29,681 nt of DNA from Prochloraceae cyanobacterium (lineage in GTDB: Bacteria; Cyanobacteriota; Cyanobacteriia; Cyanobacteriales; JASJDA01). The notes under the pieces were generated by a model, which made no database searches, was not told where the DNA came from, and saw only the letters and a list, made by a program, of their open reading frames with translations. Location: contig JASJCW010000031.1 of assembly GCA_030065265.1 (NCBI GenBank), positions 1-29,681 on the forward strand, given 5' to 3'. Positions 6,448 to 27,543 of this stretch are shown here, one piece after another; the first letter of the stretch is position 1; each line of letters begins with the position of its first letter. The position numbers and the translations under genes were made by a program.

Positions 6448-7001
6448 TAGTCTGGCAAAAAATTAATATTTCACCAATTGATTTGACTTCTCTTCATAAA
6501 GTGTAATAAAAGGTTTCCTTCGGAGAATCGTAATGTTAGTATATGTTACGTATTAGTGAAAAATTAACTGCAATACTGCGTTTATAGCAAAGCTATGCAA
6601 TAGGAAATTGCCATAAATTGAAAAATAATTCTATAAATACAAAAAGTTGGGATTGAATTAAAAATTGATAGTAGTTAGAAAGTATTTTTAATCTAGATTT
6701 AATAGCTCCAATAAAGATCCCATTTACCTAAAAATTCTGCCAAAAAACAATAAATAAATTGGAGAAAATCTAGAAAATAAAATAGCAGCAAGTTCGAGAT
6801 ACTAACTTTTTACTGAAAATATAATCTCAATTATAAGTATTTAATCGTATTGTCTGTTAGGGTAGCAAAAATTATTTTCAATGTTATCTAAATTTTTATA
6901 AACGCGATCGGCCCGTTTTACTGATAAGTTAGAAAAATGTTTTATAAAACTCCTGTAGGTTAGTTCCAATTAACACAAAGGATTATTCAAAAAATAAACC
7001 C
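6448..7001 (+). promoter_or_regulatory. 554-bp AT-rich non-coding 5' region of ggpS (promoter/leader; possible regulatory RNA or small ORF region)
   Basis: No ORF of 60 aa or more on either strand. It is extremely AT-rich with poly-A/T tracts. In Synechocystis the ggpS upstream region carries the small regulator ggpR and is post-transcriptionally regulated. Exact promoter elements not resolved. Confidence 0.3.
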
Positions 7002-8486: not shown

Positions 8487-8557
8487 CAGCCCAAATAAAC
8501 CGGCAAATTTGAGAGTTCGAGCAGTCAGCAGTTAGCAGTCAGCAAGATTCTTACTCG

Positions 8558-10063: not shown

Positions 10064-10213
10064 AGTAGGGAACGGGTCAAAATAATAAATTGAACTGCAA
10101 TTATAGAGCAAGTCGCGAGTAAAATTCCGAGGAGAAAATCTTACTTAAATTAATTTAAAATTCAAGATTTTTTTACTCTTTATTCAAAAAATTTTACTCT
10201 CTTGATGCTCTAT

Positions 10214-12721: not shown

Positions 12722-12847
12722 AATGTTAATACGTTGGAAATATTATTGCTGATTTTTAAACAATACAGCAAAATTAACACTCAATATTTCTTTGGCAAAA
12801 AACCGAACTATGATGGAATTTAGTAAACATTCATAAAATCGTAAATC

Positions 12848-14533
12848 GTGAGAGACTATCAATCAATTAAAAATACAAGCTACGAAGCAATAATTATCGG
12901 TGGAGGGATAAATGGAGCGGGAGTAGCTCGAGATGCTGCTTTAAGAGGATTAAAAACTATTTTAATCGAAAAAAACGATTTTGCTAGTGGTAGTTCTAGT
13001 TGGTCTACTAGATTAGTGCATGGAGGGTTGCGATATCTAGAATATTTTGAATTACCTTTAGTAAGAGAGTCTTTAAAAGAAAGAGAAATTTTATTAAACA
13101 TCGCCCCTCATTTAGTTAAACCTCTTTTATTAACCGTACCAGTTTACGGCGATCGCTCTCGCCCTTATTGGAAAATTTGGGCTGGAATGATTCTGTACGA
13201 TCTTTTTAGCTTTGATAAAACCCTCCCGGGTTATAGAATGCTAAATAAAGCAAAATTTAAGCGGATTTTTCCGACTTTAGATCCTGAAAATTTAAGTGGT
13301 GGAGCGCAATATTACGACGCTCGAGTTGCTCATGCTGAAAGATTGTGTCTTGAAAATATTATTTCAGCTAAAGAAGCCGGTGCAGACGTACTCAATTACG
13401 TCAAAGTAACTCGATTGCACCTTGAAGGGAAGAAAATTACTCATCTTACCTGCAAAGATACCTTGACAGGAGAAGAATTTACAGTTAAAGGCACAGAAGA
13501 TGCAGTGATTGTAAACACTTCAGGCCCTTGGGTAGATGAAGTATGTGGTTCTATTGAAATCGAAGCAACCAAAGCCGACAGTTCCAAGGCGATCGTTCAC
13601 GGTAAAAAAATGGGGCCGACTAAAGGCAGCCATATTGTTGTCGATCCTTTTCCAGGTGCGCCAGAAAGCGGTCTTTACGTTGAAGCTAAATCCGACGGTC
13701 GTCCTTTCTTTATTTTGCCTTGGTTGGGTAAATATTTAATCGGAACTACGGATTTTCCCTATCACAAAGATCTCGAATCGATCAAAGCAGATAACGATGA
13801 AATCGATTATTTATTAACAGAAACAAATAATATTTTACCGACAGCTAATTTATCGCGCCAAGATATTAAATTCACCTATTCTGGAGTGCGTCCTTTACCA
13901 AACGAAGCAGGAAAAAAAGCCGGGAGTATTACTCGCTCTCACATTCTCTTTGACGGAAAAAAAGAAGGGGTATTTAATTTAATTTCTCTAATTGGCGGCA
14001 AACTAACAACCTATCGTCAAGTAGGCGAAGAAATAGTCGATGCGATTTTAAAAAAACAAGGCAAACCAATTTCTAGCTCTAAAACGGCTCTTCAACCTTT
14101 ACCCGGAGCTATTAAAGCCTCTAATCCTCTGATTCAAAAAACTATCGATCTATATCGGGATAAAGTTTCTTTAAACATTATTGCCCATCTCTTTTCTCTT
14201 TACGGAGCTAGAGCTGTCTCAGTTTTAGAATTAACCGAAGAAAATCCTGAATTAGCCGAAACTATTCATCCCGAATTACCAGATATTAAAGCCCAACTCG
14301 TCTATGGAGTCCGAGTTGAATTTGCCCTGAGTTTAGTAGATTTGATTCGCCGTCGCACTGCGATCGCCATGGAGGCTAATTACGGCTTAGATGTACTGAC
14401 AACCTCGATCGAAGTTTTACAAAAATATTGCAATTGGAGCGCAGAACGTTGCGAACTGGCTCGTTCTGAATATATTACTTATATGAAAAACAATTGCATT
14501 CCCGATTTTGAATTAGAGGCAAACTTAATATAG
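12848..14533 (+). CDS. glpD: FAD-dependent glycerol-3-phosphate dehydrogenase
   Basis: YEAIIIGGGINGAGVARDAALRGLKTILIEKNDFASGSSSWSTRLVHGGLRYLE is the classic GlpD N-terminal FAD-binding signature (GGGINGAG...D.A.GTSS.S.KL.HGGLRYLE). 561 aa. Confidence 0.9.
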   Translation: MRDYQSIKNTSYEAIIIGGGINGAGVARDAALRGLKTILIEKNDFASGSSSWSTRLVHGGLRYLEYFELPLVRESLKEREILLNIAPHLVKPLLLTVPVYGDRSRPYWKIWAGMILYDLFSFDKTLPGYRMLNKAKFKRIFPTLDPENLSGGAQYYDARVAHAERLCLENIISAKEAGADVLNYVKVTRLHLEGKKITHLTCKDTLTGEEFTVKGTEDAVIVNTSGPWVDEVCGSIEIEATKADSSKAIVHGKKMGPTKGSHIVVDPFPGAPESGLYVEAKSDGRPFFILPWLGKYLIGTTDFPYHKDLESIKADNDEIDYLLTETNNILPTANLSRQDIKFTYSGVRPLPNEAGKKAGSITRSHILFDGKKEGVFNLISLIGGKLTTYRQVGEEIVDAILKKQGKPISSSKTALQPLPGAIKASNPLIQKTIDLYRDKVSLNIIAHLFSLYGARAVSVLELTEENPELAETIHPELPDIKAQLVYGVRVEFALSLVDLIRRRTAIAMEANYGLDVLTTSIEVLQKYCNWSAERCELARSEYITYMKNNCIPDFELEANLI

Positions 14534-14536
14534 AGA

Positions 14537-16054
14537 TTGAGGATAATGGATAATAATTTTTTTAAGGACTCGTTGGATAAAAAAGTTATCGAACAACGGG
14601 TTAGTGCAATTAGCCAAGCTAAGGTGGGATTTTATAGCATCGGTCTTTATCCGGCCTCTCTTGCTTACAATTCGGCAATGCAAAAAAGCAATAAATCTCT
14701 TCTATTAGCTACCCGGCCGGGAAGATCTCTCCTCGGGGCATTTTCTGAAGAGGAAATTAAAGGAATGGATCCCCGACACCTCGTCAAGATGCGTCGCATG
14801 GCATCCCATAAAGAAAACGGAAAATCCGTACCGAATACTCTAGAATACTTGATCGCAAAGTGCGATTTAATCGTCTTGAGTTCTAATAGTAAATACATCA
14901 AGCAAGATCTCGACCAAGCTTGCAATCTTAGAAAAAAGCTCGGTCGCACTAATGTCGTGCTTTCCTGTCTAGCAGGTTCTTTCAACCACGATGAAGCTAA
15001 TAATGAGTCTTATGTATTGTGCGAAAAATATCCCAATCTGGCCTTTTTCTCTGGATTTCATCGACACGGTTCGTTAAGAGATCCGGTAGATAGTTTTACA
15101 GCTAATTTTTGCCATCCCAATTCTTTAACAGCTTTGATCGGGGCCCACATACTGAATCAACTTTCTCCGAACATTCAAGTTTCTCCTGGAATTCACAATG
15201 TTGAAGCGCAATATTTGAAAGCTGCTAAAAATATGGCATCTATTTTTGCCGGTTTTGGTTATGTTTATCACGAGCAAAATCCAGGGATTCTGCCTACTCT
15301 ATTGACTTTGTTGCTCCATCAATGTTTAGATCAGGCTGCGACCGTTTCTATGTCGCGACAAGATCGCGAAAAGCTTTACACTCAGCAAACCATTGCTTTA
15401 ACGGAGTTAGGTTATGCTATACCGAGAATTGAAGCAGTCTTAAATAAAGGTGGTTTTACCGAAAAAGTTCGCGATCATACTTTTTCTCAATTAACGGCGA
15501 TGGTTGCTGACGTGCGAGGAAGTATGATGCTTCCAGTCACTGGGAAACCTACCAGAAATTTTCAAGCCGGACAAGCTTTAGCCTACGGTATGTCGAAACA
15601 CGGTCGCTGTCCGATCGACGTTAAAGAATTTGAACAGTGGTGTAAAGATGCTGGATTAAATGTCGGATCTTTAGAAGGTTTAAAAGCTTTGAAATACTGG
15701 CCGCAAATCGAAGCAAAATACTCAATTCAAAATCACGATGCTTCAATGGTTAATCTTCTTTATAAGGGATTGTATGGCACTGAAGAAGAAAAAGATTTTG
15801 CTTTTGAAGTGATGACACAAAGTCGAGAATTATCAAATTATTGTCAAGAGTCGGTTCGACATACCCACAGTCGCAAGTATGCAGAAGCCCTTAATCATAT
15901 CGAACAATTAGAAGCACTCGAATTAATTTCAAACGCTATTATTGCCGACAACGCGCGCAAAGCTATTCGCAATAACGATAATCCAATTGAAGAAAGAGAA
16001 TTAAATTCAGATACTCCAGCTTATTTGCGAGCAATTGACTCTATCGAACAATAG
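14537..16054 (+). CDS. Hypothetical protein with a GpsA-like (NAD-dependent G3P dehydrogenase / opine-DH fold) core, degenerate dinucleotide motif, ~120-aa C-terminal extension
   Basis: 505-aa ORF starting 3 nt after the glpD stop. Weak but collinear resemblance to GpsA: KVGFYSIGLYPASLA versus KIAVLGAGSWGTALA (glycines lost), CDLIVLSSNSKYIKQ versus ADLVLFVVPSQAFRE, LSCLAGSF versus VISGPTF, and TGKPTRNFQAGQALAYGMS versus TDNQSRNRRFGMMLGQGMD. Assignment is tentative. Confidence 0.4.
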   Translation: MRIMDNNFFKDSLDKKVIEQRVSAISQAKVGFYSIGLYPASLAYNSAMQKSNKSLLLATRPGRSLLGAFSEEEIKGMDPRHLVKMRRMASHKENGKSVPNTLEYLIAKCDLIVLSSNSKYIKQDLDQACNLRKKLGRTNVVLSCLAGSFNHDEANNESYVLCEKYPNLAFFSGFHRHGSLRDPVDSFTANFCHPNSLTALIGAHILNQLSPNIQVSPGIHNVEAQYLKAAKNMASIFAGFGYVYHEQNPGILPTLLTLLLHQCLDQAATVSMSRQDREKLYTQQTIALTELGYAIPRIEAVLNKGGFTEKVRDHTFSQLTAMVADVRGSMMLPVTGKPTRNFQAGQALAYGMSKHGRCPIDVKEFEQWCKDAGLNVGSLEGLKALKYWPQIEAKYSIQNHDASMVNLLYKGLYGTEEEKDFAFEVMTQSRELSNYCQESVRHTHSRKYAEALNHIEQLEALELISNAIIADNARKAIRNNDNPIEERELNSDTPAYLRAIDSIEQ

Positions 16055-16323: not shown

Positions 16324-17091
16324 TCAAGCATTTTTAATAAAGCGAATAATTTCGCGAACGTTGCCTAAAAATTTACTGTCTTCTGCGAGCTGAGAAATAG
16401 CATTTTTTGCTGCTTCAGATAAGCGTTGATGTTCTCTTTGGTTATCCGCTTTTAATCCTTCTAAATTTGCCCTTAATTTTGCCGTATTTTCGCGAATTTG
16501 TTGCCATTCTCTTTGCTGAATGTTAACTAAGGAACTATCGTTTTTTGGATCTAATTTTTCCGAAATTTTTTGAACGTTATTCTCTAAGAATATCAAGCGA
16601 GATTGCAATTCAATTACATCTTCTCGAGGATATTTGATTTCACGGCGAATTGAAGATATCCTAGCCTCTAGGTACTGATAAAAACTAATCGCAGGACGCA
16701 ATCCAGTTAACAATAAAGCAGCAGCAGAACTAATATAACCGATCGCACTAATTCCGGTAGCTGCTAAAATATAAAGTCCGATCGCCGAAATAAGATGCAA
16801 TGCGATCGCAATTATAATCGACCAACGAGATACCAAAGTAACGTATTCAATTTGTTTGTTATCTACTGTTATTCCTTTTTCTTGCGATGTTTCGCTTTCT
16901 ATTATTACTTGTTTGGCTTCAAAATAGATATTCCAAGGTATAGTTACAATAACTACTAACCACCAAAAACTAGCTATTCCGAAGATCCAATCGATTAAAT
17001 TACCTGCCGGAATGTGAAGCCATTCTAAAATTCCAAATAATAGTAAAACAAGCAAGCCTAATCCTATAGTAAACATTACTGACGCAATCAT
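16324..17091 (-). CDS. Hypothetical membrane protein: 4 predicted TM helices followed by a long coiled-coil C-terminal domain
   Basis: 255-aa ORF. Hydrophobic segments IASVMFTIGLGLLVLLLFGIL, IFGIASFWWLVVIVTIPW, WSIIIAIALHLISAIGLYILAA and IGYISSAAALLLTGL. The C-terminus is rich in heptad-like E/K/Q/L (LQSRLIFLENNVQKISEKL...LRANLEGLKADNQREHQRLSEAAKNAISQLAEDS). Its start lies 5 nt downstream of the MTase stop (operon). Confidence 0.6.
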   Translation of the reverse strand: MIASVMFTIGLGLLVLLLFGILEWLHIPAGNLIDWIFGIASFWWLVVIVTIPWNIYFEAKQVIIESETSQEKGITVDNKQIEYVTLVSRWSIIIAIALHLISAIGLYILAATGISAIGYISSAAALLLTGLRPAISFYQYLEARISSIRREIKYPREDVIELQSRLIFLENNVQKISEKLDPKNDSSLVNIQQREWQQIRENTAKLRANLEGLKADNQREHQRLSEAAKNAISQLAEDSKFLGNVREIIRFIKNA

Positions 17092-18112: not shown

Positions 18113-18709
18113 TTAATATGATTCTACCAATTGTTGCAAACCGGATATTTTAATTCCTTCGCCGATCGCTTGCACGTTCCAACCTTCATTTTCGCGATAA
18201 ATTTCAGCCATAATCATTCCCGTACTACCTTGATATTGTTGACCGGATAGATTGTAACGAGCGATTTCTCGATTGTTAGCAGTATCGACTAAGCGAACGA
18301 AAGCATTATTAACTTGACTAAAATCTTGCTGGCGATCGAACGCTTGAAAAATACTGACAGCAAAAACTAACTTATGAATATTTTCGGGTATTTTAGGCAA
18401 ATCGACCAGAATTTGTTCGTCGTCTCCTTCCCCTTCACCTGTGAGATTATCGCCTAAATGGGTAATTCCTCCAGAAACGTGAGCGAGATTGTTATAGTAA
18501 ATAACATTCATATTGTTATCTAATTTGCCCTGAGCATTTAAACACAAAACCGAAGCATCTAAATCTAGATTTGAACTGGCTTTAAAAATGCCAAGAAAAC
18601 CCCCAGAAGATTGGGCTATATCCCAACCTAAACCACACATAATTGTAGTTAAACCTGGGGACTCTTTTTTTAAAGAAATACGCTGTCCTTTTTGTAAATT
18701 AATAGACAT
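18113..18709 (-). CDS. TerD-family stress protein (divergent paralog, TerZ/TerX-like)
   Basis: 198 aa. MSINLQKGQRISL..GLGWD...GDNLTGEGEGDDEQI...VQAIGEG pattern of the TerD/CABP1 fold, with ~35-40% identity to the three downstream paralogs. Confidence 0.85.
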   Translation of the reverse strand: MSINLQKGQRISLKKESPGLTTIMCGLGWDIAQSSGGFLGIFKASSNLDLDASVLCLNAQGKLDNNMNVIYYNNLAHVSGGITHLGDNLTGEGEGDDEQILVDLPKIPENIHKLVFAVSIFQAFDRQQDFSQVNNAFVRLVDTANNREIARYNLSGQQYQGSTGMIMAEIYRENEGWNVQAIGEGIKISGLQQLVESY

Positions 18710-18721
18710 TGTTTCAATCTT

Positions 18722-19300
18722 TTAACTGTTGTAGCGGTTGAGGAGAGCTTGTAAGCCGCCCTGATAACCCGATCCTACAGCATTGACGCGCCACTCGCCA
18801 TCCTTGCGATAAAATTCGGCCATGATAATCGCAGTTTCGATCGAAAAGTCTTCAGCTAAGTCGTAACGTAAGACCTCTTCTTGAGTTTCGACATTAACCA
18901 AACGCACGTAAGCATTACTAACTTGGCCGAAATTTTGTTTGCGTTTTTCCGCTTCGTAAATAGTTACGCTGACGACCATTTTATTGACATCCGGGGGGAT
19001 TTTACGGAAATCTGCAATTAAAGCTTCGTCATCTCCTTCTCCTTCACCGGTTCGATTATCTCCCATCAATTGCACCGATTTATCTGGATCGGGACTGGTA
19101 AGATTGTTATAAAAAATAAAGTGTTTTTCTGTAATTAACTTCTGATCGGCACCAACAAGAAAAACAGATAAGTCTAAGTCAAATTCATTACCCGTATCCG
19201 TAGCATTGATATCCCATCCTAACCCGATTAAAGCCGCACTCAGCCCTGGTGCTACCTTATCTAACGATACTCTTTGACCTTTTTGTAGTGAAATTGCCAT
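18722..19300 (-). CDS. terD: TerD-family tellurium-resistance/Ca-binding stress protein
   Basis: 192 aa. It aligns end-to-end with E. coli TerD (MAISLQKGQRVSLDK..IGLGWD..FDLDLSVFL..FIFYNNL..GDNRTGEGEGDDE..VTIYEAE..QNFGQVSNAYVRLVN..RYDL.EDFS.ETA.IMAEFYR..GEWR..AVGSGYQGGL). Confidence 0.9.
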   Translation of the reverse strand: MAISLQKGQRVSLDKVAPGLSAALIGLGWDINATDTGNEFDLDLSVFLVGADQKLITEKHFIFYNNLTSPDPDKSVQLMGDNRTGEGEGDDEALIADFRKIPPDVNKMVVSVTIYEAEKRKQNFGQVSNAYVRLVNVETQEEVLRYDLAEDFSIETAIIMAEFYRKDGEWRVNAVGSGYQGGLQALLNRYNS

Positions 19301-19338
19301 ATTATAATTTTAGTTTTTGCGAGGATATTACAATTTTT

Positions 19339-19914
19339 TTATTGATAGCGGTTTAAAAGAGCCTGTAAGCCACCTTCATAGCCAGATCCTACAGCACCGA
19401 CGCGCCAGTCGCCATCCTTGCGATAAAATTCGGCCATAATAATCGCAGTTTCGATCGAAAAGTCTTCAGCTAAGTCGTAACGCAAAACCTCATCTTTAGT
19501 TTCGACATTAACCAAACGCACGTAAGCATTATTAACTTGACCGAAATTCTGTCCCCGTTTCTCTGCTTCGTGAATGGTAACGGTGACAGCCATTTTAGCA
19601 ACTTCTGGGGGGATTTTACGAAAATCTGCAATCAAAGCTTCGTCATCTCCTGCACCTTCACCGGTTCGATTATCTCCCATCAATTGCACCGATTTATCTG
19701 GATCGGGACTGTTGAGATTATTGTAGAAAACAAAGTGTTTGTCTGAAATTAATTTTTCATTGTCTCCTAATAAAAAAACCGATACGTCGAGATCGAAATC
19801 AGTACCCGTATCTGTGGGGTTGACATCCCATCCCAAACCGATCATTCCTGCATTAATTCCCGGTGCTACTTTCTCTAGGGCGATTTTTTGTCCTTTTTGG
19901 AGTGAAATAGCCAT
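19339..19914 (-). CDS. terD: TerD-family tellurium-resistance/Ca-binding stress protein
   Basis: 191 aa. ~85% identical to the 18722..19300 and 20138..20713 products. It has the GDNRTGEGAGDDE motif. Confidence 0.9.
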   Translation of the reverse strand: MAISLQKGQKIALEKVAPGINAGMIGLGWDVNPTDTGTDFDLDVSVFLLGDNEKLISDKHFVFYNNLNSPDPDKSVQLMGDNRTGEGAGDDEALIADFRKIPPEVAKMAVTVTIHEAEKRGQNFGQVNNAYVRLVNVETKDEVLRYDLAEDFSIETAIIMAEFYRKDGDWRVGAVGSGYEGGLQALLNRYQ

Positions 19915-20137
19915 ATATTTCTACCTAATCGTAAATTGCAAACTAATTTTATTATTATCGATTTGCTCGAGCGATCGATGTAGGGATAATACCCATTGGG
20001 AGCGTCGGGAGAGGTTAGTCGTTAGTGGGGAGTGTTGAAAGCGTCTGCAGAAAAAAATCAGCTGATTTTACCAATTTACAATTAATCAACCAATTTCAAA
20101 CTAAACAACTACCTACTACCTACTCCCTAACTTCGCT

Positions 20138-20713
20138 TTAATTGTAGCGAGACAAAAGTGCTTCTAGACCCCCTTGATAGCCAGATCCTACTGCGTTAAC
20201 CCGCCATTCGTTATCTTTGCGATAAAATTCGGCCATGACAATTGCAGTTTCGATCGAAAAGTCTTCATCTAATTCGTAGCGCAAGACTTCATCTTTAGTT
20301 TCGACGTTAACTAAGCGGACGTAAGCATTATTAACTTGACCGAAATTTTGACCGCGTTTGTCTGCTTCGTGAATGGTAACTGTAACGGTTATTTTATTAA
20401 CATCTGCGGGTACTTTACGAAAATCAACGATCGCCGCTTCGTCATCCCCACTACCTTCACCTGTTTTATTGTCCCCCATTAATTGAATCGATTTATCTGG
20501 ATCGGGACTGGTCAGGTTATTGTAAAAAATAAAGTGTTTTTGTGAAACTAATTTATCGTTAGCACCCAAAAGAAACAAAGACACGTCGAGATCGAAATCA
20601 GTACCCGTATCGGTAGGGTTAACATCCCATCCCAAACCAACAAGTGCTGCGGATATACCGGGTGCAGCTTTTTCTAAAGATATTTTTTGCCCTTTTTGGA
20701 GTGAAATTGTCAT
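20138..20713 (-). CDS. terD: TerD-family tellurium-resistance/Ca-binding stress protein
   Basis: 191 aa. It has the GDNKTGEGSGDDE motif and is near-identical in organisation to the two preceding paralogs. Confidence 0.9.
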   Translation of the reverse strand: MTISLQKGQKISLEKAAPGISAALVGLGWDVNPTDTGTDFDLDVSLFLLGANDKLVSQKHFIFYNNLTSPDPDKSIQLMGDNKTGEGSGDDEAAIVDFRKVPADVNKITVTVTIHEADKRGQNFGQVNNAYVRLVNVETKDEVLRYELDEDFSIETAIVMAEFYRKDNEWRVNAVGSGYQGGLEALLSRYN

Positions 20714-20733
20714 TATTTTTCCTACCTAATTTT

Positions 20734-21777
20734 ATGTTATTTAATCGAATTGTCGAAAAACTAGGAGATGCAGTCGAGCGACATAGCATAACGGCTAATA
20801 ATCTTAACCCCGAAATTACTGGAGTAGCCTCAGTAGATAGCGCAAAAGCCGGAACTATCAGCTATGTTGAAGGGGGCAAATTTGCCGCAATGGTAAGTCA
20901 AACTGCTGCTAGTGCTTTGATTTTGCCTTTAGATGAATCGCTGATAATCGCAGCCACAGAGCGAGGTCTTGCTTGGGTTGCAACCAAACAACCTCGGTTA
21001 TTATTTGCTAAGGCGATCGCCTTGTTTTATCAACCGTTTCAACCAGGCCCTGGTATTCATCCTACAGCAGTAATTGACCCTTCGGTAGTTCTCGGTAAAG
21101 ATGTTTCGATCGCATCCCACGTTGTCATTCAACCGGGAGTAACTATCGGCGATCGCGCTTGCATTCATCCTAACGTTGTCATTTATCCCGATGTTGAAAT
21201 CGGCGATCGCACGATCCTGCACGCTAACTGTACGATCCACGAACGGGCTAAAATTGGGGCCGATTGCGTGATTCATAGCGGTGCGGTTATTGGTGCGGAA
21301 GGATTTGGTTTTGTTCCCACTCCACAAGGTATTTTTAAAATGGAACAATCGGGCCGTACTGTTTTAGAGGATCGCGTAGAAGTTGGTTGCAATAGCGCGA
21401 TCGACCGCCCTGCAGTTGGTGAAACTATTATTAAACGCAATACCAAATTAGACAATATGGTGCATATCGCTCACGGTTGCGAAGTTGGCGAAAATTGCTT
21501 TATGGCGGCTCAAGTCGGCTTAGCTGGAGGCGTTAAAGTAGGTAGGGGGGTTATGCTTGGCGGACAGGTTGGTGTCGCTAATAACGCTAAAATCGGCGAT
21601 GGTGCGATCGCTACGGCTCAAACTGGTATTCCCAGCGACATTGCACCCGGAGCAATTGTTTCGAGTTCTCCGGCCGTTCCTAACAAGTTATATCTTAAAG
21701 TTTCGGCTATTTACAAGCGTCTGCCGGAAATGTATAGAATTTTGAAAAAGTTGCAAAAAAAATTAGATTTAGATTGA
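20734..21777 (+). CDS. lpxD: UDP-3-O-(3-hydroxyacyl)glucosamine N-acyltransferase
   Basis: The N-terminal motif ITGVASVDSAKAGTISYVEGGKFAAMVSQTAASALI matches the LpxD N-domain. It is followed by ~10 hexapeptide (left-handed beta-helix) repeats (IHPTAVIDPSVVLGKDVSIASHVVIQPGVTIGDRACIHPNVVIYPDVEIGDRTIL...). The ORF-track start at 20644 overlaps TerD on the other strand and adds a non-conserved hydrophobic extension. ATG 20734 (MLFNRIVEKLG) gives a ~347-aa LpxD-sized protein. Confidence 0.8.
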   Translation: MLFNRIVEKLGDAVERHSITANNLNPEITGVASVDSAKAGTISYVEGGKFAAMVSQTAASALILPLDESLIIAATERGLAWVATKQPRLLFAKAIALFYQPFQPGPGIHPTAVIDPSVVLGKDVSIASHVVIQPGVTIGDRACIHPNVVIYPDVEIGDRTILHANCTIHERAKIGADCVIHSGAVIGAEGFGFVPTPQGIFKMEQSGRTVLEDRVEVGCNSAIDRPAVGETIIKRNTKLDNMVHIAHGCEVGENCFMAAQVGLAGGVKVGRGVMLGGQVGVANNAKIGDGAIATAQTGIPSDIAPGAIVSSSPAVPNKLYLKVSAIYKRLPEMYRILKKLQKKLDLD

Positions 21778-21840: not shown

Positions 21841-22176
21841 TTATTGTAATTTCTCCGTTAAACTGATATTTTTCTCGGTTAAATTGACATTTCCTGCCAT
21901 TTGAGGGACTTGTAATAATATACCTACTCCTCCTACTAATACGGCGATCGCCATTGTCAATAAAGCTAACTTTGGTGCCAAGCTGGACTCTTTTTGAATT
22001 GGCGGCTGATTTTCTAGGTCTACTGGTTCGGTTTCGTCGTAATTTTCACTGTCGGCAAAGCATTCTTTTTCTACTAAATGAGTCCAATTATCGCCAATTG
22101 TCGGGTGAAAAAATAACCAGTTTTGATTGTTACTTGTATATCTGGGTCGTTTGTAACTCATTTGTCTTGCTCCCAA
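21841..22176 (-). CDS. Hypothetical small protein with one C-terminal TM helix
   Basis: 111-aa ORF, with an alternative start at MSYKRPRY 15 nt in. One hydrophobic helix, LALLTMAIAVLVGGVGILL. No recognisable family. Supported only by ORF length and position between lpxD and a long AT-rich region. Confidence 0.3.
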   Translation of the reverse strand: MGARQMSYKRPRYTSNNQNWLFFHPTIGDNWTHLVEKECFADSENYDETEPVDLENQPPIQKESSLAPKLALLTMAIAVLVGGVGILLQVPQMAGNVNLTEKNISLTEKLQ

Positions 22177-22741
22177 TTAAAAATAAAGTATTTTCAAGTT
22201 ATGTTGGATTTAACTATATCTTATGAGCGTTTTAACTCAAAAAATTCATTTCTTCACTCAAATTAAACATTATATTTTACGCAAATTAAACATTTTGTAA
22301 TGTTGGAGTGGAAAAATAAATATTTTTTTATTGGCTTGTAAAATATTTAAGGGATCGCGATCGCAATTAATATCTTTATTCAAGCAATTTTTTTATCAAT
22401 TTATTATTAAAAAGCAACATTAAAAATAAAAGAAAAATATATCTAAAAAAAGCCCTTTATTTAAACAAGATTTGCAATAGCAATTACTATTCATATCAAT
22501 GACCGAACAATTAAGGAAAATAAATTTAATAAGTAATTCTTTTTAAGCGATCCAGCCTAAATATTTATACTGAGGCTCTGCTCTTGACAATTAATATCTT
22601 ATAGATTCAGAACTTGAATTCAATTTGATTGTGATAAAGTAAATTAAAAGCAAATTTAAATTTTAGATCTAATTTAATGCAATCGTCTGAAAAAATAACG
22701 ATCTAAATCACTTAATAAACTAGAGAATAGGAACCGATTAA

Positions 22742-24040
22742 ATGGGGTTATTTGACAGAATTCGCGGCGAATTTGTTGATGTTATTGAATGGTTAGATTC
22801 AACTAATGATACGATTGTTTACCGCTTCGAGCGTTATAAAAACGAGATAAAAATGGGAGCAAAATTAACAGTGCGTCCGGGGCAAATGGCTGTATTTGTT
22901 AAAGAGGGTCAAGTTGCCGATGTTTTCTCGCCAGGAATGTATCAACTTTCGACCAGAAACTTACCGATTTTAACTACTTTAATGTCCTGGTCTCATGCCT
23001 TCAACTCGCCATTTAAAGCAGAAGTTTACTTTTTTAGTACCAAAGTTTTTACTAACCTTAAATGGGGAACATCTAAACCAATTACTCTGCGCGATCGCGA
23101 ATTAGGGCCGGTTCGGATCAGAGCTTATGGAAACTACAGTATTAAAGTCGAATCTCCAACCTTATTATTACAAGAATTAGTTAGCACAGATGGGTTATTT
23201 CAAGTAGATGAAGTTAGCGATCATCTCCGTAATATTATCGTTAGTTCCTTTGCTAAATGGCTAGGTAGTTCCCAAATTGCCGTCTTAGATTTAGCCGCTC
23301 ATTATGGCGATTTGGGGGATAAAATTCAAGCCGCAATCAAACCGGAAATGAATCAGGTTGGCATCGAATTAGATCGTTTATTAATTGAAAATATTTCTTT
23401 ACCTTCAGCGGTAGAAGAAGCTTTGGACAAACGTGCTTCGATGGGATTGTTAGGGAATATGCAACAATATACCCAGTTTCAAACTGCTAACGCGATCGAG
23501 CGATCGGCTGAAAACCCCAATAGTAGCAATCCCGGTTTAGATTTTGGCATGGGTATGATGATGGCTCAGCAAATGTCTTCTGCAATGCAGCAACCACAAA
23601 ATCAAGTCCCGCGATCGAATTCCGCTCCAGTTGCTCCCCCTCCTTTAACTCCTCAATGGTATATTGTTGAAAACGGTCAACAAATAGGGCCTTTAGATTT
23701 TCATCAGCTATCCCAAAGAAGGTTAATTTCTCAAACCTTGGTATGGCGTAATGGTATGAGCGAGTGGCTTCCGGCCGCTCGAGTAGGGGAATTATCATCT
23801 TTATTGACACCGCCAACACCACCGACACCACCGACACCACCAACCCCTCCAATATCAGCACCAACATCTTCTTTAGGTAAAGCAGAGTGGTATATTTTTC
23901 GGAGCGGTCAAGCTACGGGGCCGTTCACCAAACAACAATTAAAAGAACAAGGAATATCCGGGAGAACTAACGTCCGTAAAGAAGGTGACGAAGGATGGAC
24001 TAGAGCCAGAGATATCTCCGAATTAAGTTCTATTATTTGA
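22742..24040 (+). CDS. SPFH/band-7 superfamily protein of the YdjI/COG4260 type with two C-terminal DUF4339 (GYF-like) domains separated by a (PT)n linker
   Basis: N-terminal MGLFDRIRGEFVDVIEWLDSTNDTIVYRFERYKNEIKMGAKLTVRPGQMAVFVKEGQVADVFSPGMYQLSTRNLPILTTL is highly similar to the B. subtilis YdjI family as I recall it. The C-terminus has two repeats, QWYIVENGQQIGPLDFHQL......LVWRNGMSEWLPAARVGEL and EWYIFRSGQATGPFTKQQL...NVRKEGDEGWTRARDISEL (DUF4339/GYF-like, W-Y-x-x-x-G-x-x-x-GP). These flank LTPPTPPTPPTPPTPP. Confidence 0.8.
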   Translation: MGLFDRIRGEFVDVIEWLDSTNDTIVYRFERYKNEIKMGAKLTVRPGQMAVFVKEGQVADVFSPGMYQLSTRNLPILTTLMSWSHAFNSPFKAEVYFFSTKVFTNLKWGTSKPITLRDRELGPVRIRAYGNYSIKVESPTLLLQELVSTDGLFQVDEVSDHLRNIIVSSFAKWLGSSQIAVLDLAAHYGDLGDKIQAAIKPEMNQVGIELDRLLIENISLPSAVEEALDKRASMGLLGNMQQYTQFQTANAIERSAENPNSSNPGLDFGMGMMMAQQMSSAMQQPQNQVPRSNSAPVAPPPLTPQWYIVENGQQIGPLDFHQLSQRRLISQTLVWRNGMSEWLPAARVGELSSLLTPPTPPTPPTPPTPPISAPTSSLGKAEWYIFRSGQATGPFTKQQLKEQGISGRTNVRKEGDEGWTRARDISELSSII

Positions 24041-24072
24041 TAATCCATTTTTAGACCACAAAAAAAGCTAAA

Positions 24073-25146
24073 ATGACGACTACTTCCCAGTCAGATATTA
24101 AACGATATCCTTGTTCTAGCTGCGGTGCAGAGTTAGAATTTAATACCGAACAAGCTCAACTTAAGTGTAATTATTGCGGTTATCAAGAAGTTATTTCCAG
24201 CGATCGAGTAGTAGAAGAAAAGTGTTTTAACCAACAGTTAAATAGCGATCGAATTAAACTAAAGGCATTATCAGAAACAGCATTAGAAGTAAGTTGCTCT
24301 GATTGTGGTGCTAATATTATCTTTGAACCGCCTCAAGTAGCCGGTAGTTGTCCTTTTTGTGCTGCTAATATTGTTACTCAACCTAAACTAGCCGAACCAA
24401 TTATTACACCTGAAGCGGTAATTCCTTTTACTATCGGTCGGAAAAAAGTTAGCAAAAATTTACAACAATGGTTGAGCAAACATTGGTTTGTTCCTAATGA
24501 ATTAAAAAAATTAGCTCAATTAGAGAAAATACAAGGTGTTTATCTTCCTTTTTGGACTTACGATGCCGATACTGCTACCTACTATCGAGGAGAAAGAGGA
24601 ATAACCGAATGCGACGAAGATGAGGATGGAAACTCTTCTAATTGTACTACTAGTTGGTCTCCGGTTAGCGGTCAAGTAGGGCGTTTTTTCGATGATATTT
24701 TAGTATCTGGAACTAATTTAATTGAGAGCGATCGCCTGGGTAAGTTAGAACCTTGGCATCTTCAAGAATCTTTAAAACCTTATAGTCCTTCTTATTTAGC
24801 AGGTTTTGAAGCCCAAAGATCGCAGATCGATCTCGAAGATGGTTTTGAAATTGCAAAAAATATAATGGCTTGTCAAATTAGAGATGATGTTGAAAAAGAT
24901 ATCGGTGGCGACGAACAACGCATTCACCATCTTTCTACAAGCTACAATGCAACTACTTTTAAACATATTTTACTTCCAGTTTGGTTGACATCTTACCGCT
25001 ATCGCAACAAGCAATATCAAGTAATAATTAACGGATACACTGGAAAAATTAAAGGCGATCGCCCCTTAAGCAATTTTAAAATTGTTTGTACGGTTTTAGC
25101 CTGTATCGCCCTCGTTGGTTTGATTATTTTTCTATGCTCAAAATAG
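24073..25146 (+). CDS. Double zinc-ribbon membrane-anchored protein (YdjG-like partner of the SPFH protein)
   Basis: 357 aa. Two CxxC-x(n)-CxxC ribbons (CSSCGAELEF..CNYCGY; CSDCGANIIF..CPFCAAN) and one C-terminal TM helix (IVCTVLACIALVGLIIFLC). It lies 32 bp downstream of the SPFH gene on the same strand. In Bacillus the ydjG (Zn-ribbon)/ydjI (SPFH) genes are co-operonic. Confidence 0.65.
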   Translation: MTTTSQSDIKRYPCSSCGAELEFNTEQAQLKCNYCGYQEVISSDRVVEEKCFNQQLNSDRIKLKALSETALEVSCSDCGANIIFEPPQVAGSCPFCAANIVTQPKLAEPIITPEAVIPFTIGRKKVSKNLQQWLSKHWFVPNELKKLAQLEKIQGVYLPFWTYDADTATYYRGERGITECDEDEDGNSSNCTTSWSPVSGQVGRFFDDILVSGTNLIESDRLGKLEPWHLQESLKPYSPSYLAGFEAQRSQIDLEDGFEIAKNIMACQIRDDVEKDIGGDEQRIHHLSTSYNATTFKHILLPVWLTSYRYRNKQYQVIINGYTGKIKGDRPLSNFKIVCTVLACIALVGLIIFLCSK

Positions 25147-25719
25147 TTTTTATTTTTTATTTTCCTTCAATCTTTAAGCTATTTTCTGTAATGCTAGTTA
25201 CTAGCAAAAGGAAGTGAAATCATTTAAATGTTTATAAATAAAAGATCGAGTCAGTTTTTTTTAAAACTAAAATAGTCTTTTTGATTTTAAATATTTTTGA
25301 ATCGTAAATAATAAATACTAAGATTTAAACTTCGACAAAAATAAATTGTTGTCGGACTTTGATTGTATTTTATTTGACTTTTTATATATCTAAAAAAAAT
25401 CCAAATAAATTATTGACAAAGCTAAGAATCTTGCGTAAGAATTAAATTTATATGTAATTTATATCTCGACCTTTTTAGCAATAACGATCGAAATCTTAGA
25501 GCGATCGGGAACACATTAGCATTGGTTTTGCTTCAAGCAGAGCCAAACTAAATTTTATACTTATTTTTTTTCGACGTAATGAAAAATACTAAACTGCAAA
25601 AAATGTCTTAGAAAAATTAAAAATATACCAGGAAATCCGGCTGATTCTTACAGTTTGATTCGCTTAAAAGTTTGCATCTAATAATTAAGCGATCGATTAA
25701 ATTGAAAACTTCAGTAAAT

Positions 25720-27543
25720 ATGAACGAAACAATTCTAAGAAAAACAAAACCATCTATTTTTGTTTTTGCAACTTTACTAGCCGTTACTGCAGCAAAAAGC
25801 ACTTTAGCTCAAAACGTTAATATTAGCGATGCGATCGCCCAAGAAGGCAATCCTTTAACTTTCGATCTCACTTTATCAACTCCCAGCACTGGCAATATCG
25901 TACTTAATCTTAATACTACCGACATTAATGCTGCGGGAAATATAGACTATCAAAATAATAATTTTCAGTTTAGTATTGATGGCGGTACTAACTTTCAACC
26001 TGGTGGAGGAACAAATGGCACGGAAATTACTATTCCTAGCGGAGTAACTAACATTCAAGTACAAATTGATAGTATTGCAGATAGCAACCTCGAACTAGAT
26101 GAAACTTTTACTTTGAGGGTAGCTAATTTAGTTAGCGGTACGGTAGACAATATTACAGATACGGGTACGGGGACGATCGCCGATTTTAATTCTACTAGCG
26201 TGAGTTGTCCGACTCCTTCAGTGCTAATTATCGGCAATCCTTCGCGTCGATCGCTTTACGATTTAACTAATGCGACAATCGATCCCGGTACTCCTATTAC
26301 GGGTTTAGATCCTGGGGTTACTTTAAACGCGACTGGTTTTAATATTATCGATCGCTATTTTTACGGATTAGAAGATGTCAACGGCGATCGCAGTCTTTAT
26401 CGTTTTGATAGCTTTGGCAATGCCCTAAAATTAGGAGAAATTGCTAGTTTAAATTTCGGCCGCTATAATTCTGGAGATATCGATTTAGATGGCTATTATT
26501 ACGCCAGTAATAGCGGGAGAACTTTAATTGAAGTTCTCGATCTCAATCCCAATCGCAGCACTTATTTAACTAAAATTGCTACTATTACTTCTCCGATTAC
26601 TTTAAGCTCTGATTTAGCCGTCAGTCCGATCGACAATCGGATCTATTTCATTCGCAACAATCGCGATTTGTGGTCTTTGGAAATAGATTTAGCAACCCAA
26701 TCAGTTATAAGTTCGATTAATTTCGGGCAAACTAATTTTCCGGGAACGACATCCGTAGCAACTGGTGCGGCTTTTTTTGATGTTGATGGAAATTTTTACG
26801 CATATAATAACCGGACTGGAGATTTATTAAGATTTCCAACTCAACCGACTGTTTCAACTACCGGTCAATTCATCGGTCAAGGGAGTATTGTAAATAATAA
26901 TGATGGAACTCGCTGTTCGATCGCTCCGGTTGTCCCGACTTTAACTGCTCCTGAATTAATTCTTGTCAAGCGGATCGCGGCTATTAACGGAAATATCCTT
27001 ACTAATGGAGGTCAAGATCTAAGTATTTTTAATAACGATTTTAACGACCTCAACGATAACAATCCTAACTGGCCGACTCCTTTAAATACTTTCCTCAGAG
27101 GTGGAATTAATGGCGGTTTAGTTCGGCCGGGAGACGAAGTAGAATATATAATTTATTTTCTCTCATCTGGCGTTGGAGCGGTCAGAAACGTCAAAATATG
27201 CAGCGTGCTTCCAACCAATACTAATTTTGTTGCCGATGCTTTTGGGATTAATAGCGGCATTGCTTTAGCTAACAGTAATAGCATTTTACCGATCGCACCA
27301 ACAGATTTATTAACTAATAATATTAACGACGATCGGGGTAATTTTTATCCACCATTTTCTCAAACTCCCGATGTTTGTAAAGATCCGAATAATTTAACCA
27401 ATCCTCTAACTGCTGCGAATAATACTAACGGTGCGGTAGTCGTCAATGTTGTCAGCGATCCGGTTATTTTAGACAATGCAATTGCACCGGGAAATCCCGC
27501 TAATTCTTACGGTTTTATTCGCTTTAAAGTTCGCATTGAGTAA
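25720..27543 (+). CDS. Secreted surface protein: signal peptide + Calx-beta domain + beta-propeller-like middle + C-terminal DUF11-type repeat domain
   Basis: Start moved to ATG 25720 (MNETILRKTKPSIFVFATLLAVTAAKSTLAQ is a Sec signal). The Calx-beta signature reads DAIAQEGNPLTFDLTLSTPSTGNIVLNLNTTD..AGNIDYQ......DETFTLRVANL. The C-terminus LILVKRIAAING...VRPGDEVEYIIYFLSSGVGAVRNVKICSVLPTNTNFV matches the DUF11 pattern (pGd.v.Y.i...N.G...a.nv.i.d.lP). Confidence 0.7.
   Translation: MNETILRKTKPSIFVFATLLAVTAAKSTLAQNVNISDAIAQEGNPLTFDLTLSTPSTGNIVLNLNTTDINAAGNIDYQNNNFQFSIDGGTNFQPGGGTNGTEITIPSGVTNIQVQIDSIADSNLELDETFTLRVANLVSGTVDNITDTGTGTIADFNSTSVSCPTPSVLIIGNPSRRSLYDLTNATIDPGTPITGLDPGVTLNATGFNIIDRYFYGLEDVNGDRSLYRFDSFGNALKLGEIASLNFGRYNSGDIDLDGYYYASNSGRTLIEVLDLNPNRSTYLTKIATITSPITLSSDLAVSPIDNRIYFIRNNRDLWSLEIDLATQSVISSINFGQTNFPGTTSVATGAAFFDVDGNFYAYNNRTGDLLRFPTQPTVSTTGQFIGQGSIVNNNDGTRCSIAPVVPTLTAPELILVKRIAAINGNILTNGGQDLSIFNNDFNDLNDNNPNWPTPLNTFLRGGINGGLVRPGDEVEYIIYFLSSGVGAVRNVKICSVLPTNTNFVADAFGINSGIALANSNSILPIAPTDLLTNNINDDRGNFYPPFSQTPDVCKDPNNLTNPLTAANNTNGAVVVNVVSDPVILDNAIAPGNPANSYGFIRFKVRIE

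What the first reader, a model, noticed from the sequence alone, without database searches (positions are those of the whole stretch)
22742..25146. Psp-type membrane-stress pair (YdjI-like SPFH + YdjG-like double Zn-ribbon) without pspA, and with a tandem GYF/DUF4339 + (PT)4 C-terminal add-on
The SPFH gene and the zinc-ribbon membrane protein form the conserved pair that in Firmicutes sits in the pspA-ydjGHI envelope-stress operon. Here no PspA gene or YdjH-like gene is present, and the order is inverted (SPFH first). The SPFH protein has gained two C-terminal DUF4339 (GYF-like, proline-rich-ligand-binding type) domains bridged by a PTPPTPPTPPTPP linker. This suggests recruitment of an additional partner protein. 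The pair is preceded by a 565-bp AT-rich regulatory region.
Basis: partly seen in the sequence, partly recalled or inferred. Interest (0 to 1): 0.55.

Follow-up and report, generated by a model that had tools for sequence, protein, structure and literature searches.

The report
Common SPFH–GYF / YdjG-like membrane pair
These two adjacent cyanobacterial genes encode a soluble SPFH scaffold protein with two proline-binding GYF domains and its likely zinc-ribbon membrane anchor; the pair is real and related to Bacillus YdjI/YdjG, but this PspA-less, GYF-bearing form is the common layout in every non-Firmicute group sampled, not an oddity of this genome.

Summary
ORF 22742..24040 (432 aa) is a Band_7_1 SPFH protein with two GYF_2 domains. 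A (TPP)5 linker separates them. ORF 24073..25146 (357 aa) is a full-length YdjG homologue: two CxxC…CxxC zinc ribbons, a PepSY/NTF2-like core and a C-terminal membrane helix. BLASTP against a Bacillus pspA-ydjGHI operon gives E 5e-38 (YdjI) and 4e-43 (YdjG). No PspA or YdjH (TPM) gene lies in the 29.7-kb window.

The claim of unusualness does not hold. All 120 best SPFH homologues carry GYF_2, in one, two or three copies, nearly always flanked by proline-rich stretches. The order SPFH then YdjG-like, without PspA or TPM, recurs in six other cyanobacterial loci, an Armatimonadota-like contig, Vibrio and Tsukamurella; Comamonas has an HTH instead of GYF. The YdjG-like family has about 6,500 cluster representatives at E ≤ 1e-10. 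The SPFH+GYF architecture was published in 2007.

The Firmicute four-gene operon therefore looks like the elaboration, and this window shows the common two-gene core. My inferred mechanism: the tail-anchored YdjG-like protein holds an oligomeric SPFH scaffold under the membrane, and the GYF domains bind proline-rich ligands. Interest is modest (0.3).

The parts
22177..22741 (.). 565-bp AT-rich intergenic region between a divergent small ORF (21841..22176, -) and the SPFH gene. It presumably holds the promoter and contains one HIP1 palindrome at 22357..22364.
   Evidence: GC is 0.276 for 22001-22500. Sequence was read. There is no Rfam family and no excess of promoter-like sites.
22742..24040 (+). 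Gene for a soluble YdjI/SamI-type SPFH protein with two C-terminal GYF_2 domains (432 aa).
   Evidence: ORF. Pfam hits Band_7_1 at E 2.4e-90 and GYF_2 at E 3e-31. BLASTP to Bacillus YdjI gives E 5e-38. There is no hydrophobic segment (maximum KD19 1.08). The AF2 model resembles stomatin, prohibitin, HflK/C and flotillin.
22817..23446 (+). SPFH (Band_7_1) domain, residues 26-235.
   Evidence: Pfam envelope 26-235 matches profile positions 1-210 of 211. Foldseek PDB hits are stomatin 9z7u (E 1.8e-9), prohibitin 8rrh and HflK/C 7vhq.
23447..23656 (+). Low-complexity Q/M/N-rich spacer, residues 236-305. It holds a conserved Met-rich motif, GLDFGMGMMMAQQM (about residues 264-279), and ends in a proline-rich stretch (APVAPPPLTP).
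   Evidence: G269, G271, M274, Q276 and Q277 are invariant or nearly so in 47 homologues. Bacillus YdjI has a similar Met-rich stretch. pLDDT is low in this region.
23657..23794 (+). GYF_2 domain 1, residues 306-351.
   Evidence: Best Pfam GYF_2 stretch is 306-351. phmmer hits the solved GltJ/AgmX GYF structure 7z3c_A at E 4.1e-7, over residues 304-370. pLDDT is above 90.
23807..23852 (+). 9-bp tandem repeat (ACACCACCA, 5.1 copies) encoding the (TPP)5 inter-GYF linker. Its copy number varies in the population.
   Evidence: TRF result. There are 5 copies in the window and L012, 4 in L013 and L014, and 3 in P0121; the L012-L014 contigs are 99.0-99.9% identical to the window, and P0121 is a 96%-identical protein from another contig.
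23882..24031 (+). GYF_2 domain 2, about residues 381-430.
   Evidence: This is the second GYF_2 stretch. An HMM built from the window copies finds two domains. pLDDT is 90-95.
24073..25146 (+). Gene for a tail-anchored YdjG/SamG-type protein (357 aa). It starts 32 bp after the SPFH stop codon, so the two are probably co-transcribed.
   Evidence: ORF and gap. BLASTP to Bacillus YdjG gives E 4e-43 over 333 aa. The AF2 model has pLDDT 86.9 and pTM 0.80.
24112..24177 (+). Zinc ribbon 1 (C14-x2-C17 … C32-x2-C35).
   Evidence: The cysteines are invariant. Beta-hairpins span residues 20-40 in the model. Zinc-ribbon hits are sub-threshold. This region aligns with the part of Bacillus YdjG that passes PF08271.
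24295..24360 (+). Zinc ribbon 2 (C75-x2-C78 … C93-x2-C96), with a nearly invariant EPP motif (P86, P87).
24409..25062 (+). Cytoplasmic alpha+beta core, residues 113-330. It consists of two helix-plus-curved-sheet modules of PepSY/NTF2-like type.
25072..25140 (+). C-terminal transmembrane helix (tail anchor), residues 334-356. Nothing follows it on the far side of the membrane.
   Evidence: KD19 is 3.08 at residues 337-355. The model has helix 334-356. Many homologues have a post-TM extension that is absent here.

Best explanation
This is an ordinary copy of a widespread two-gene bacterial module. Gene 1 encodes a soluble SPFH protein of the Band_7_1 (YdjI/SamI) subfamily, whose C-terminus carries two bacterial GYF domains flanked by proline-rich spacers. 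Gene 2 encodes a tail-anchored YdjG/SamG-type protein. Its two zinc ribbons and PepSY/NTF2-like core face the cytoplasm.

Proposed mechanism:
- Shown: the homology of both parts, the domain layout, the predicted topology and the conserved adjacency.
- Inferred: the YdjG-like protein tethers the SPFH protein to the cytoplasmic face of a membrane.
- Inferred: the SPFH domain oligomerises into a ring or cage, as solved SPFH proteins do.
- Inferred: the flexible GYF arms bind proline-rich sequences. These could be the protein's own or a neighbouring subunit's linkers, which would cross-link the scaffold, or a client encoded elsewhere.
- Speculative: by analogy with Bacillus SamGHI, the assembly senses or buffers membrane stress. 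Whether it also handles Vipp1/PspA is open.

The Firmicute pspA-ydjGHI operon is best read as an elaboration of this core.
For: - Pfam hits for Band_7_1 and 2x GYF_2.
- BLASTP to YdjI (E 5e-38) and YdjG (E 4e-43, full length); reciprocal tblastn agrees.
- The SPFH protein has no TM, while the YdjG-like protein has a strong C-terminal TM.
- A confident YdjG-like model has two ribbons, a YpeB/PepSY-like core and a terminal helix.
- The SPFH model matches cage-forming stomatin, prohibitin, HflK/C and flotillin.
- The same gene order, on the same strand, occurs in 7 cyanobacterial loci (the window, L005 with one inserted gene, L006, L007, L015, L017, L018). It also occurs in L010, Vibrio L019, Comamonas L020 and Tsukamurella L021. 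Flanking genes are unrelated in each case, and PspA/TPM are absent.
- 165 of 170 GYF domains in 121 homologues have a proline-rich stretch just upstream.
- The bacterial GYF domain of GltJ binds a proline-rich sequence with micromolar affinity (PMC11135422).
- In B. subtilis, YdjG and YdjH are required for YdjI membrane foci (PMC8581546).
Against: - No interaction was tested.
- In B. subtilis the two-hybrid link to YdjI ran through YdjH, not YdjG (PMC8581546), and no YdjH homologue is present here.
- The pair is not obligatorily linked. In Lusitaniella the two genes lie on different contigs. YdjG-like genes stand without an adjacent SPFH gene in an Abditibacteriales contig and a Blastocatellia contig.
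- The cytoplasmic part of the window's YdjG-like protein has no obvious proline-rich ligand apart from a conserved EPP in ribbon 2.
- No expression or stress data exist for this locus.
Confidence: 0.6

Rival explanations
1. One reading: the pair is a Psp-system module. It recruits Vipp1/PspA, encoded elsewhere in the genome, to the membrane, as YdjI does for PspA in B. subtilis. The GYF domains add a further partner.
For: Both proteins are homologous to YdjI and YdjG. YdjI is needed for PspA foci and binds PspA in two-hybrid assays (PMC8581546). From general knowledge, thylakoid-bearing cyanobacteria encode Vipp1 and often a PspA paralogue.
Against: No PspA_IM30 gene lies within 5-8 kb of the pair in any of the 12 non-Firmicute loci inspected, nor in the 29.7-kb window. 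The C-terminal zinc ribbon of YdjI is replaced by GYF domains. The 2026 SamGHI preprint finds PspA dispensable for the SamI developmental phenotype (10.64898/2026.02.06.704340). From general knowledge, Vipp1 binds membranes on its own.
Confidence: 0.22
2. The pair is mainly a membrane-stress signalling device rather than a structural scaffold. The SPFH protein restrains the YdjG-like sensor, and the variable C-terminal module (GYF, zinc ribbon, SHOCT or HTH) is the output that contacts regulators.
For: In Comamonas the C-terminal module is HTH_17. The same SPFH subfamily also carries SHOCT (PMC3581485) and a zinc ribbon. Loss of SamI in B. subtilis causes constitutive stress signalling and global transcription changes (10.64898/2026.02.06.704340). 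ZnR-GYF modules act as switches in GltJ (PMC11135422).
Against: No regulator gene is conserved next to the pair, and the flanks differ in every locus. Nothing here shows signalling. This reading is compatible with the scaffold model rather than exclusive of it.
Confidence: 0.12
3. The pair is an anti-phage or abortive-infection module, or a mobile-element cargo.
For: There is a weak PADLOC hit of the zinc-ribbon region to candidate PDC-S64 (E 3.1e-5, no stretch passing on its own). Four TerD genes lie upstream. A TIR-domain gene lies near the Vibrio copy.
Against: The SPFH protein has no PADLOC hit. The YdjG-like protein is found in only 8 of 50,697 phage records and 12 of 72,556 plasmid records, mostly megaplasmids or chromids. 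The pair is chromosomal, and its neighbours are housekeeping genes that differ between genomes. No nuclease or other effector domain is present.
Confidence: 0.03
4. The two genes are merely neighbours with no functional connection.
For: Some genomes separate them, or a YdjG-like gene stands without an adjacent SPFH gene.
Against: The same order and strand recur in four phyla plus an Armatimonadota-like metagenome contig, with unrelated flanks and gaps of 3 to about 290 bp. Their Bacillus homologues are interdependent (PMC8581546).
Confidence: 0.03

Closest known systems
Bacillus subtilis pspA-ydjGHI (pspA-samGHI) operon (Scholz et al. 2021, PMC8581546; Baur et al. 2026 preprint)
   Same: It has a soluble Band_7_1 SPFH protein (YdjI/SamI) and a YdjG/SamG protein with two zinc ribbons, a YpeB-like core and a TM. 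Both are homologous to the window proteins (E 5e-38 and 4e-43), with the same predicted topology.
   Different: The window has no pspA and no ydjH (TPM) gene. The order is SPFH first. The C-terminal zinc ribbon of YdjI is replaced by two GYF_2 domains. The organism is a cyanobacterium, so no sigma-W context applies. Among the loci I sampled, the Firmicute four-gene form is the exception.
SPFH/Band 7 + GYF architecture of bacterial GYF proteins (Balaji and Aravind 2007, PMC2034487)
   Same: It has the same domain architecture. That paper also noted proline-rich stretches flanking the GYF domains and adjacent genes for TM proteins.
   Different: That paper did not identify the YdjG-type partner or discuss tandem GYF copies. 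No experiment exists on this architecture.
Myxococcus GltJ ZnR-linker-GYF switch (Attia et al. 2024, PMC11135422; structure 7z3c)
   Same: It has a bacterial GYF_2 domain (phmmer E 4.1e-7 to 7z3c_A) that binds a proline-rich sequence. Zinc-ribbon and GYF modules work together at the cytoplasmic face of the membrane.
   Different: In GltJ both modules are on one TonB-like membrane protein of the gliding motor. Here the GYF domains sit on the SPFH protein and the zinc ribbons on the partner. There is no MglA/MglB/AglZ context.
Cage-forming SPFH complexes (HflK/C-FtsH, stomatin, prohibitin, flotillin, QmcA-YbbJ)
   Same: The SPFH fold is shared (Foldseek E 1e-9 to 1e-6). An operon partner that is a small membrane protein recalls the SPFH-NfeD pairs.
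   Different: The window protein has no TM or hairpin of its own and no long C-terminal coiled-coil 'wall'. The partner is YdjG-type, not NfeD. Whether it oligomerises is not known.

Membership tests
Band_7_1 (PF13421) / YdjI-SamI subfamily of SPFH proteins | Matches the PF13421 profile above the gathering score. | tested here: met
   302.2 bits against a cut-off of 24; E 2.4e-90; profile positions 1-210 of 211.
Band_7_1 (PF13421) / YdjI-SamI subfamily of SPFH proteins | Direct sequence similarity to Bacillus YdjI across the SPFH domain. | tested here: met
   29% identity over 248 aa, E 5e-38; reciprocal tblastn E 1.3e-34.
Band_7_1 (PF13421) / YdjI-SamI subfamily of SPFH proteins | Soluble protein with no membrane anchor of its own. 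| tested here: met
   Maximum 19-residue Kyte-Doolittle hydropathy is 1.08. The model shows no hydrophobic helix.
Band_7_1 (PF13421) / YdjI-SamI subfamily of SPFH proteins | C-terminal zinc ribbon, as in YdjI and in the COG4260 description. | tested here: not met
   The window protein ends in two GYF_2 domains and has no cysteine motif. Bacillus YdjI has Zn_ribbon_3 at residues 302-322.
YdjG / SamG family | Two N-terminal CxxC…CxxC zinc ribbons. | tested here: met
   Eight invariant cysteines and beta-hairpin ribbons in the model. The region aligns to the YdjG ribbons. Its own Pfam zinc-ribbon hits are sub-threshold only.
YdjG / SamG family | Central domain related to YpeB, with an NTF2-like or PepSY-like fold (PMC11237479). 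| tested here: met
YdjG / SamG family | Single C-terminal TM segment. | tested here: met
   KD19 is 3.08 at residues 337-355; the model has helix 334-356.
YdjG / SamG family | Full-length sequence similarity to Bacillus YdjG. | tested here: met
   28% identity over 333 aa, E 4e-43.
pspA-ydjGHI type Psp operon | A PspA_IM30 gene in the operon. | tested here: not met
   No PF04012 hit on any scanned window ORF. tblastn with Bacillus PspA finds nothing.
pspA-ydjGHI type Psp operon | A YdjH-type TPM_phosphatase membrane protein in the operon. | tested here: not met
   No PF04536 hit and no tblastn hit in the window.
pspA-ydjGHI type Psp operon | Gene order ydjG before ydjI. | tested here: not met
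   The SPFH gene precedes the YdjG-like gene, against L002.
pspA-ydjGHI type Psp operon | Induction by envelope stress and physical interaction with PspA. | not testable with these tools
   This needs expression and interaction experiments.
Bacterial GYF (GYF_2, PF14237) | Matches the profile above the gathering score. | tested here: met
   107.4 bits against a cut-off of 25.8, with two stretches. phmmer to the GltJ GYF structure 7z3c_A gives E 4.1e-7.
Bacterial GYF (GYF_2, PF14237) | Binds proline-rich sequences. | not testable with these tools
   Only circumstantial evidence is available. Proline-rich stretches lie upstream of 165 of 170 GYF domains in 121 homologues. Binding has been shown for GltJ (PMC11135422).

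The most novel reading that the evidence does not exclude
The SPFH-GYF/YdjG-like pair is a PspA-independent sub-membrane scaffold. In this reading the tandem GYF domains bind the proline-rich linkers of neighbouring subunits and build a multivalent lattice under the membrane. The slippage-prone (TPP)n repeat, which varies from 3 to 5 copies among near-identical genomes, would tune its valency. Alternatively, in cyanobacteria the pair positions Vipp1 at sites of thylakoid or plasma-membrane damage.
Probability: 0.15. Interest if true: 0.55.

Novelty: new variant of a known kind. Interest (0 to 1): 0.3.

Why it matters
The pair itself is common and already carries routine database labels, so this window adds little. 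The useful correction is one of perspective. The well-studied Bacillus pspA-ydjGHI operon appears to be a Firmicute elaboration of a two-gene core, SPFH followed by a YdjG-like anchor. That core is spread across cyanobacteria, Proteobacteria, Actinomycetota and an Armatimonadota-like metagenome contig, and usually carries GYF domains.

No one appears to have studied this core form experimentally; I found no paper on it in the searchable library. Working out what the GYF domains bind would show whether this SPFH subfamily acts with or without PspA/Vipp1. In cyanobacteria that question bears on thylakoid membrane maintenance.

Tried and rejected
- Complex prediction. I built a paired, GS-linked SPFH+YdjG-like alignment to predict the complex.
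- Rfam over the whole window found no family, so there is no known riboswitch or sRNA in the 565-bp leader.
- The promoter/terminator scan found no excess over shuffles. The 'regulatory' label stays unsupported.
- PADLOC gave only a weak zinc-ribbon hit to PDC-S64. Together with rarity in phages and plasmids, I rejected the defence reading.
- I considered the 255-aa protein at 16324..17091 as a possible divergent PspA, because of faint coiled-coil hits. I rejected this: it is a multi-TM protein with a C-terminal coiled coil and has no PspA similarity.
- The proline-rich tails of longer YdjG-like homologues are not plausible GYF ligands. They lie after the TM helix, so they are outside the cytoplasm, and the window protein lacks them.
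- Literature searches for COG4260, DUF4339, PF13421 and PF14237 found nothing on the cyanobacterial pair.
- I could not establish whether Synechocystis Sll0815 is the orthologue.
No systematic neighbourhood census was therefore possible, and the 12 contig look-ups plus 3 plasmid regions are only a sample.
Full report
**What is there.** The window is cyanobacterial. The HIP1 palindrome GCGATCGC occurs 36 times against 0.34 expected. Near-identical contigs (99.0-99.9%) come from one metagenome series, CHAS20-1. The two ORFs named in the finding exist exactly as stated: 22742..24040 (+, 432 aa) and 24073..25146 (+, 357 aa), separated by 32 bp. Upstream lies a 565-bp stretch of about 28% GC, bounded by a divergent small ORF.

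**Gene 1.** Pfam gives Band_7_1 (PF13421) at E 2.4e-90 over residues 26-235. It also gives GYF_2 (PF14237) at E 3e-31 with two stretches.
- The protein has no hydrophobic segment; maximum KD19 is 1.08.
- An AF2 model built on 47 homologues has a confident SPFH domain and two confident small GYF domains (pLDDT above 90). The spacers between them are disordered.
- The SPFH part matches stomatin, prohibitin, HflK/C and flotillin by Foldseek, at E 1e-9 to 1e-6.
- GYF domain 1 matches the solved GYF domain of Myxococcus GltJ/AgmX, 7z3c_A, at E 4.1e-7.
- The inter-GYF linker reads LLTPPTPPTPPTPPTPPISAP. It is encoded by a 9-bp tandem repeat at 23807..23852.
- The repeat number varies among otherwise near-identical sequences. 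There are five TPP units in the window and L012, four in L013 and L014, and three in the 96%-identical P0121.

**Gene 2.** No Pfam model passes threshold; there are only weak zinc-ribbon hits.
- Eight cysteines forming two CxxC…CxxC motifs are invariant in 59 homologues.
- An AF2 model with pLDDT 86.9 and pTM 0.80 shows two beta-hairpin ribbons, then two helix-plus-long-curved-sheet modules, then a terminal helix at residues 334-356.
- That helix is strongly hydrophobic, with KD19 3.08.
- This reproduces the published description of B. subtilis YdjG: two zinc ribbons, a YpeB-related NTF2-like domain and a TM segment (PMC11237479).
- Because the TM is the last element, the bulk of the protein should face the cytoplasm. 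This is an inference.

**Direct test of the YdjI/YdjG claim.** I fetched the pspA-ydjGHI operon from Bacillus stercoris, using a published ydjG primer as a DNA probe.
- Its products are PspA_IM30, YdjG (TFIIB-type zinc ribbon), YdjH (TPM_phosphatase) and YdjI (Band_7_1 plus a C-terminal zinc ribbon).
- The window's gene 2 product aligns with YdjG end to end: 28% identity over 333 aa, E 4e-43.
- The SPFH domain of gene 1 aligns with YdjI: 29% identity over 248 aa, E 5e-38.
- Reciprocal tblastn agrees.

**Absence of PspA and YdjH.** I scanned every window ORF of 150 aa or more, plus several smaller ones and the partial ORF at the 3' end, against Pfam. None hits PspA_IM30 or TPM_phosphatase. tblastn with the Bacillus proteins finds nothing. 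A 255-aa protein with faint coiled-coil hits (16324..17091) is a multi-TM protein, not a PspA. Whether the genome encodes Vipp1/PspA elsewhere cannot be seen from this window.

**Is this arrangement unusual? It is not.**
- All 120 best SPFH homologues carry GYF_2. Among them and the window protein, 75 have one copy, 43 have two and 3 have three.
- The inter-GYF linker is proline-rich in 43 of the 45 other multi-GYF homologues.
- 165 of 170 GYF domains have a proline-rich stretch within 18 residues upstream.
- 102 of 121 proteins also have a proline-rich C-terminal tail, which the window protein lacks.
- The YdjG-like family is very large. A profile search finds 9,624 50%-identity cluster representatives at E ≤ 1e-3 and 6,475 at E ≤ 1e-10.

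The gene neighbourhoods give the same answer:
- SPFH-GYF is followed on the same strand by the YdjG-like gene in Sphaerospermopsis, Leptolyngbyaceae JSC-12, Microcoleus vaginatus, Kovacikia and Desertifilum.
- In Cylindrospermum the same holds, with one HEAT-repeat gene inserted between them.
- The flanks are unrelated in every case, and no PspA or TPM gene lies within 5-8 kb.
- The same pair occurs on an Armatimonadota-like metagenome contig.
- It also occurs in Vibrio coralliilyticus and Tsukamurella, both with SPFH+GYF_2, and in Comamonas, with SPFH+HTH_17.
- Linkage is frequent but not obligatory. Lusitaniella splits the two genes across contigs. Two non-cyanobacterial contigs have the YdjG-like gene without an adjacent SPFH gene.

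**Literature.** The SPFH/Band 7+GYF architecture, the flanking proline-rich stretches and the adjacency to TM-protein genes were already noted in 2007 (PMC2034487). The same SPFH subfamily also carries SHOCT at its C-terminus (PMC3581485). The picture is a conserved SPFH-plus-YdjG core with an exchangeable C-terminal adaptor: GYF, zinc ribbon, SHOCT or HTH. The Firmicute operon adds pspA and ydjH to this core.

**How it probably works.**
- Shown: the homology, domain layout, predicted topology and conserved synteny.
- Inferred from B. subtilis: YdjI is soluble and loses its membrane foci when ydjG or ydjH is deleted (PMC8581546). The YdjG-like protein is thus the likely membrane tether here, all the more because no YdjH is present.
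- Inferred from solved SPFH complexes: the SPFH protein oligomerises at the membrane.
- Inferred from GltJ: its GYF domain binds the AglZ proline-rich sequence with micromolar affinity (PMC11135422). The GYF arms therefore probably bind proline-rich peptides. The nearest candidates are the protein's own linkers, which would cross-link subunits, or an unidentified client.
- A nearly invariant EPP in zinc ribbon 2 of the partner is a further, weak candidate.
- Speculative: any link to Vipp1/PspA, and the physiological trigger.
[quoted passage not shown] This fits a core function that does not require PspA.

**Rivals.**
- A Vipp1/PspA-recruiting role remains possible, but nothing in the gene contexts supports it.
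- A signalling role is compatible with the scaffold model. The HTH variant and the Bacillus transcriptome effects hint at it.
- A defence or mobile-element role is unlikely. There is only a weak PADLOC hit to the ribbon region. There are 8 phage and 12 plasmid records among more than 120,000. The genomic contexts are housekeeping genes.
- Chance adjacency is excluded by recurrence of the pair across phyla.

**Verdict.** The supposed peculiarities (no pspA, SPFH first, GYF add-on, PT linker) are the normal state of a widespread module that has not been studied experimentally. It is best filed as the common two-gene variant of the YdjI/YdjG (SamI/SamG) system. It is of modest interest, chiefly as a pointer that the Bacillus model system is the atypical form.

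Noticed in passing
window 18113..20713 (- strand): Four tandem TerD-domain paralogues lie at 18113..18709, 18722..19300, 19339..19914 and 20138..20713. Two are about 83% identical at the DNA level. They sit just upstream of lpxD and the SPFH pair, and the same arrangement is seen in the metagenome contigs L012 and L013.
   Followed up: partly
window 5137..14533: A glucosylglycerol/glycerol salt-acclimation cluster: glucosylglycerol-phosphate phosphatase (5137..6447), GT20 GgpS-like (7002..8486), glycerol kinase (8558..10111, -), GHL5 hydrolase (10214..12721, -) and GlpD-like oxidoreductase (12848..14533). A 1090-aa HEAT + cNMP-binding protein (1865..5137) precedes it.
   Followed up: no
window 23807..23852; L012, L013, L014; P0121: The (TPP)n linker is a 9-bp tandem repeat whose copy number differs (5, 4 or 3) among sequences that are otherwise 96-99.9% identical. 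This suggests replication slippage within a natural population.
   Followed up: yes
window 23531..23578 (SPFH residues 264-279): A conserved Met-rich motif, G-L-D-F-G-x-G-M-x-M-A-Q-Q-M, lies between the SPFH domain and the C-terminal modules. A similar stretch (AGMMMGMNMANQVMNQM) occurs in Bacillus YdjI. It could be a membrane-binding or partner-binding helix; its function is unknown.
   Followed up: partly
homologues P0006, P0049, P0061, P0064, P0073 etc.: Many cyanobacterial YdjG-like proteins (420-500 aa) continue past the TM helix with a proline-rich spacer and a conserved helical domain (…AQQKxxEYQxNLxYAxQQ). This part is presumably periplasmic or lumenal. The window protein stops right after the TM helix.
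   Followed up: no
L020 3618..4718 (Comamonas odontotermitis plasmid): Here the SPFH partner of the YdjG-like gene carries a C-terminal HTH_17 DNA-binding domain instead of GYF. This hints at a transcriptional output in some lineages.
   Followed up: partly
L005 9531..10556 (Cylindrospermum sp. NIES-4074): A 341-aa HEAT-repeat gene is inserted between the SPFH-GYF and YdjG-like genes. A HEAT-repeat gene also lies near the Tsukamurella pair (L021 2562..3194).
   Followed up: no
window, whole length: The HIP1 palindrome GCGATCGC occurs 36 times against 0.34 expected, which marks the window as cyanobacterial. One copy (22357..22364) sits in the AT-rich leader of the SPFH gene.
   Followed up: yes
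window 20644..21777 versus 20138..20713: The mechanically listed LpxD ORF (377 aa, GTG) overlaps the TerD gene on the opposite strand by 70 bp. The gene callers on the matching contigs give a 347-aa product, so the overlap is an artefact of taking the first possible start codon.
   Followed up: partly
window 16324..17091 (-) and 14537..16054 (+): Two conserved ORFs have no family assignment. One is a 255-aa protein with several TM helices and a C-terminal coiled coil. The other is a 505-aa protein with no Pfam hit even at E 0.1.
   Followed up: partly
window 25147..25671 and 25672..27543: A second very AT-rich gap (about 25% GC, 525 bp) follows the pair. It has one terminator-like hairpin at 25522..25546. 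A DUF6923 repeat protein with a hydrophobic N-terminal segment comes next.
   Followed up: no
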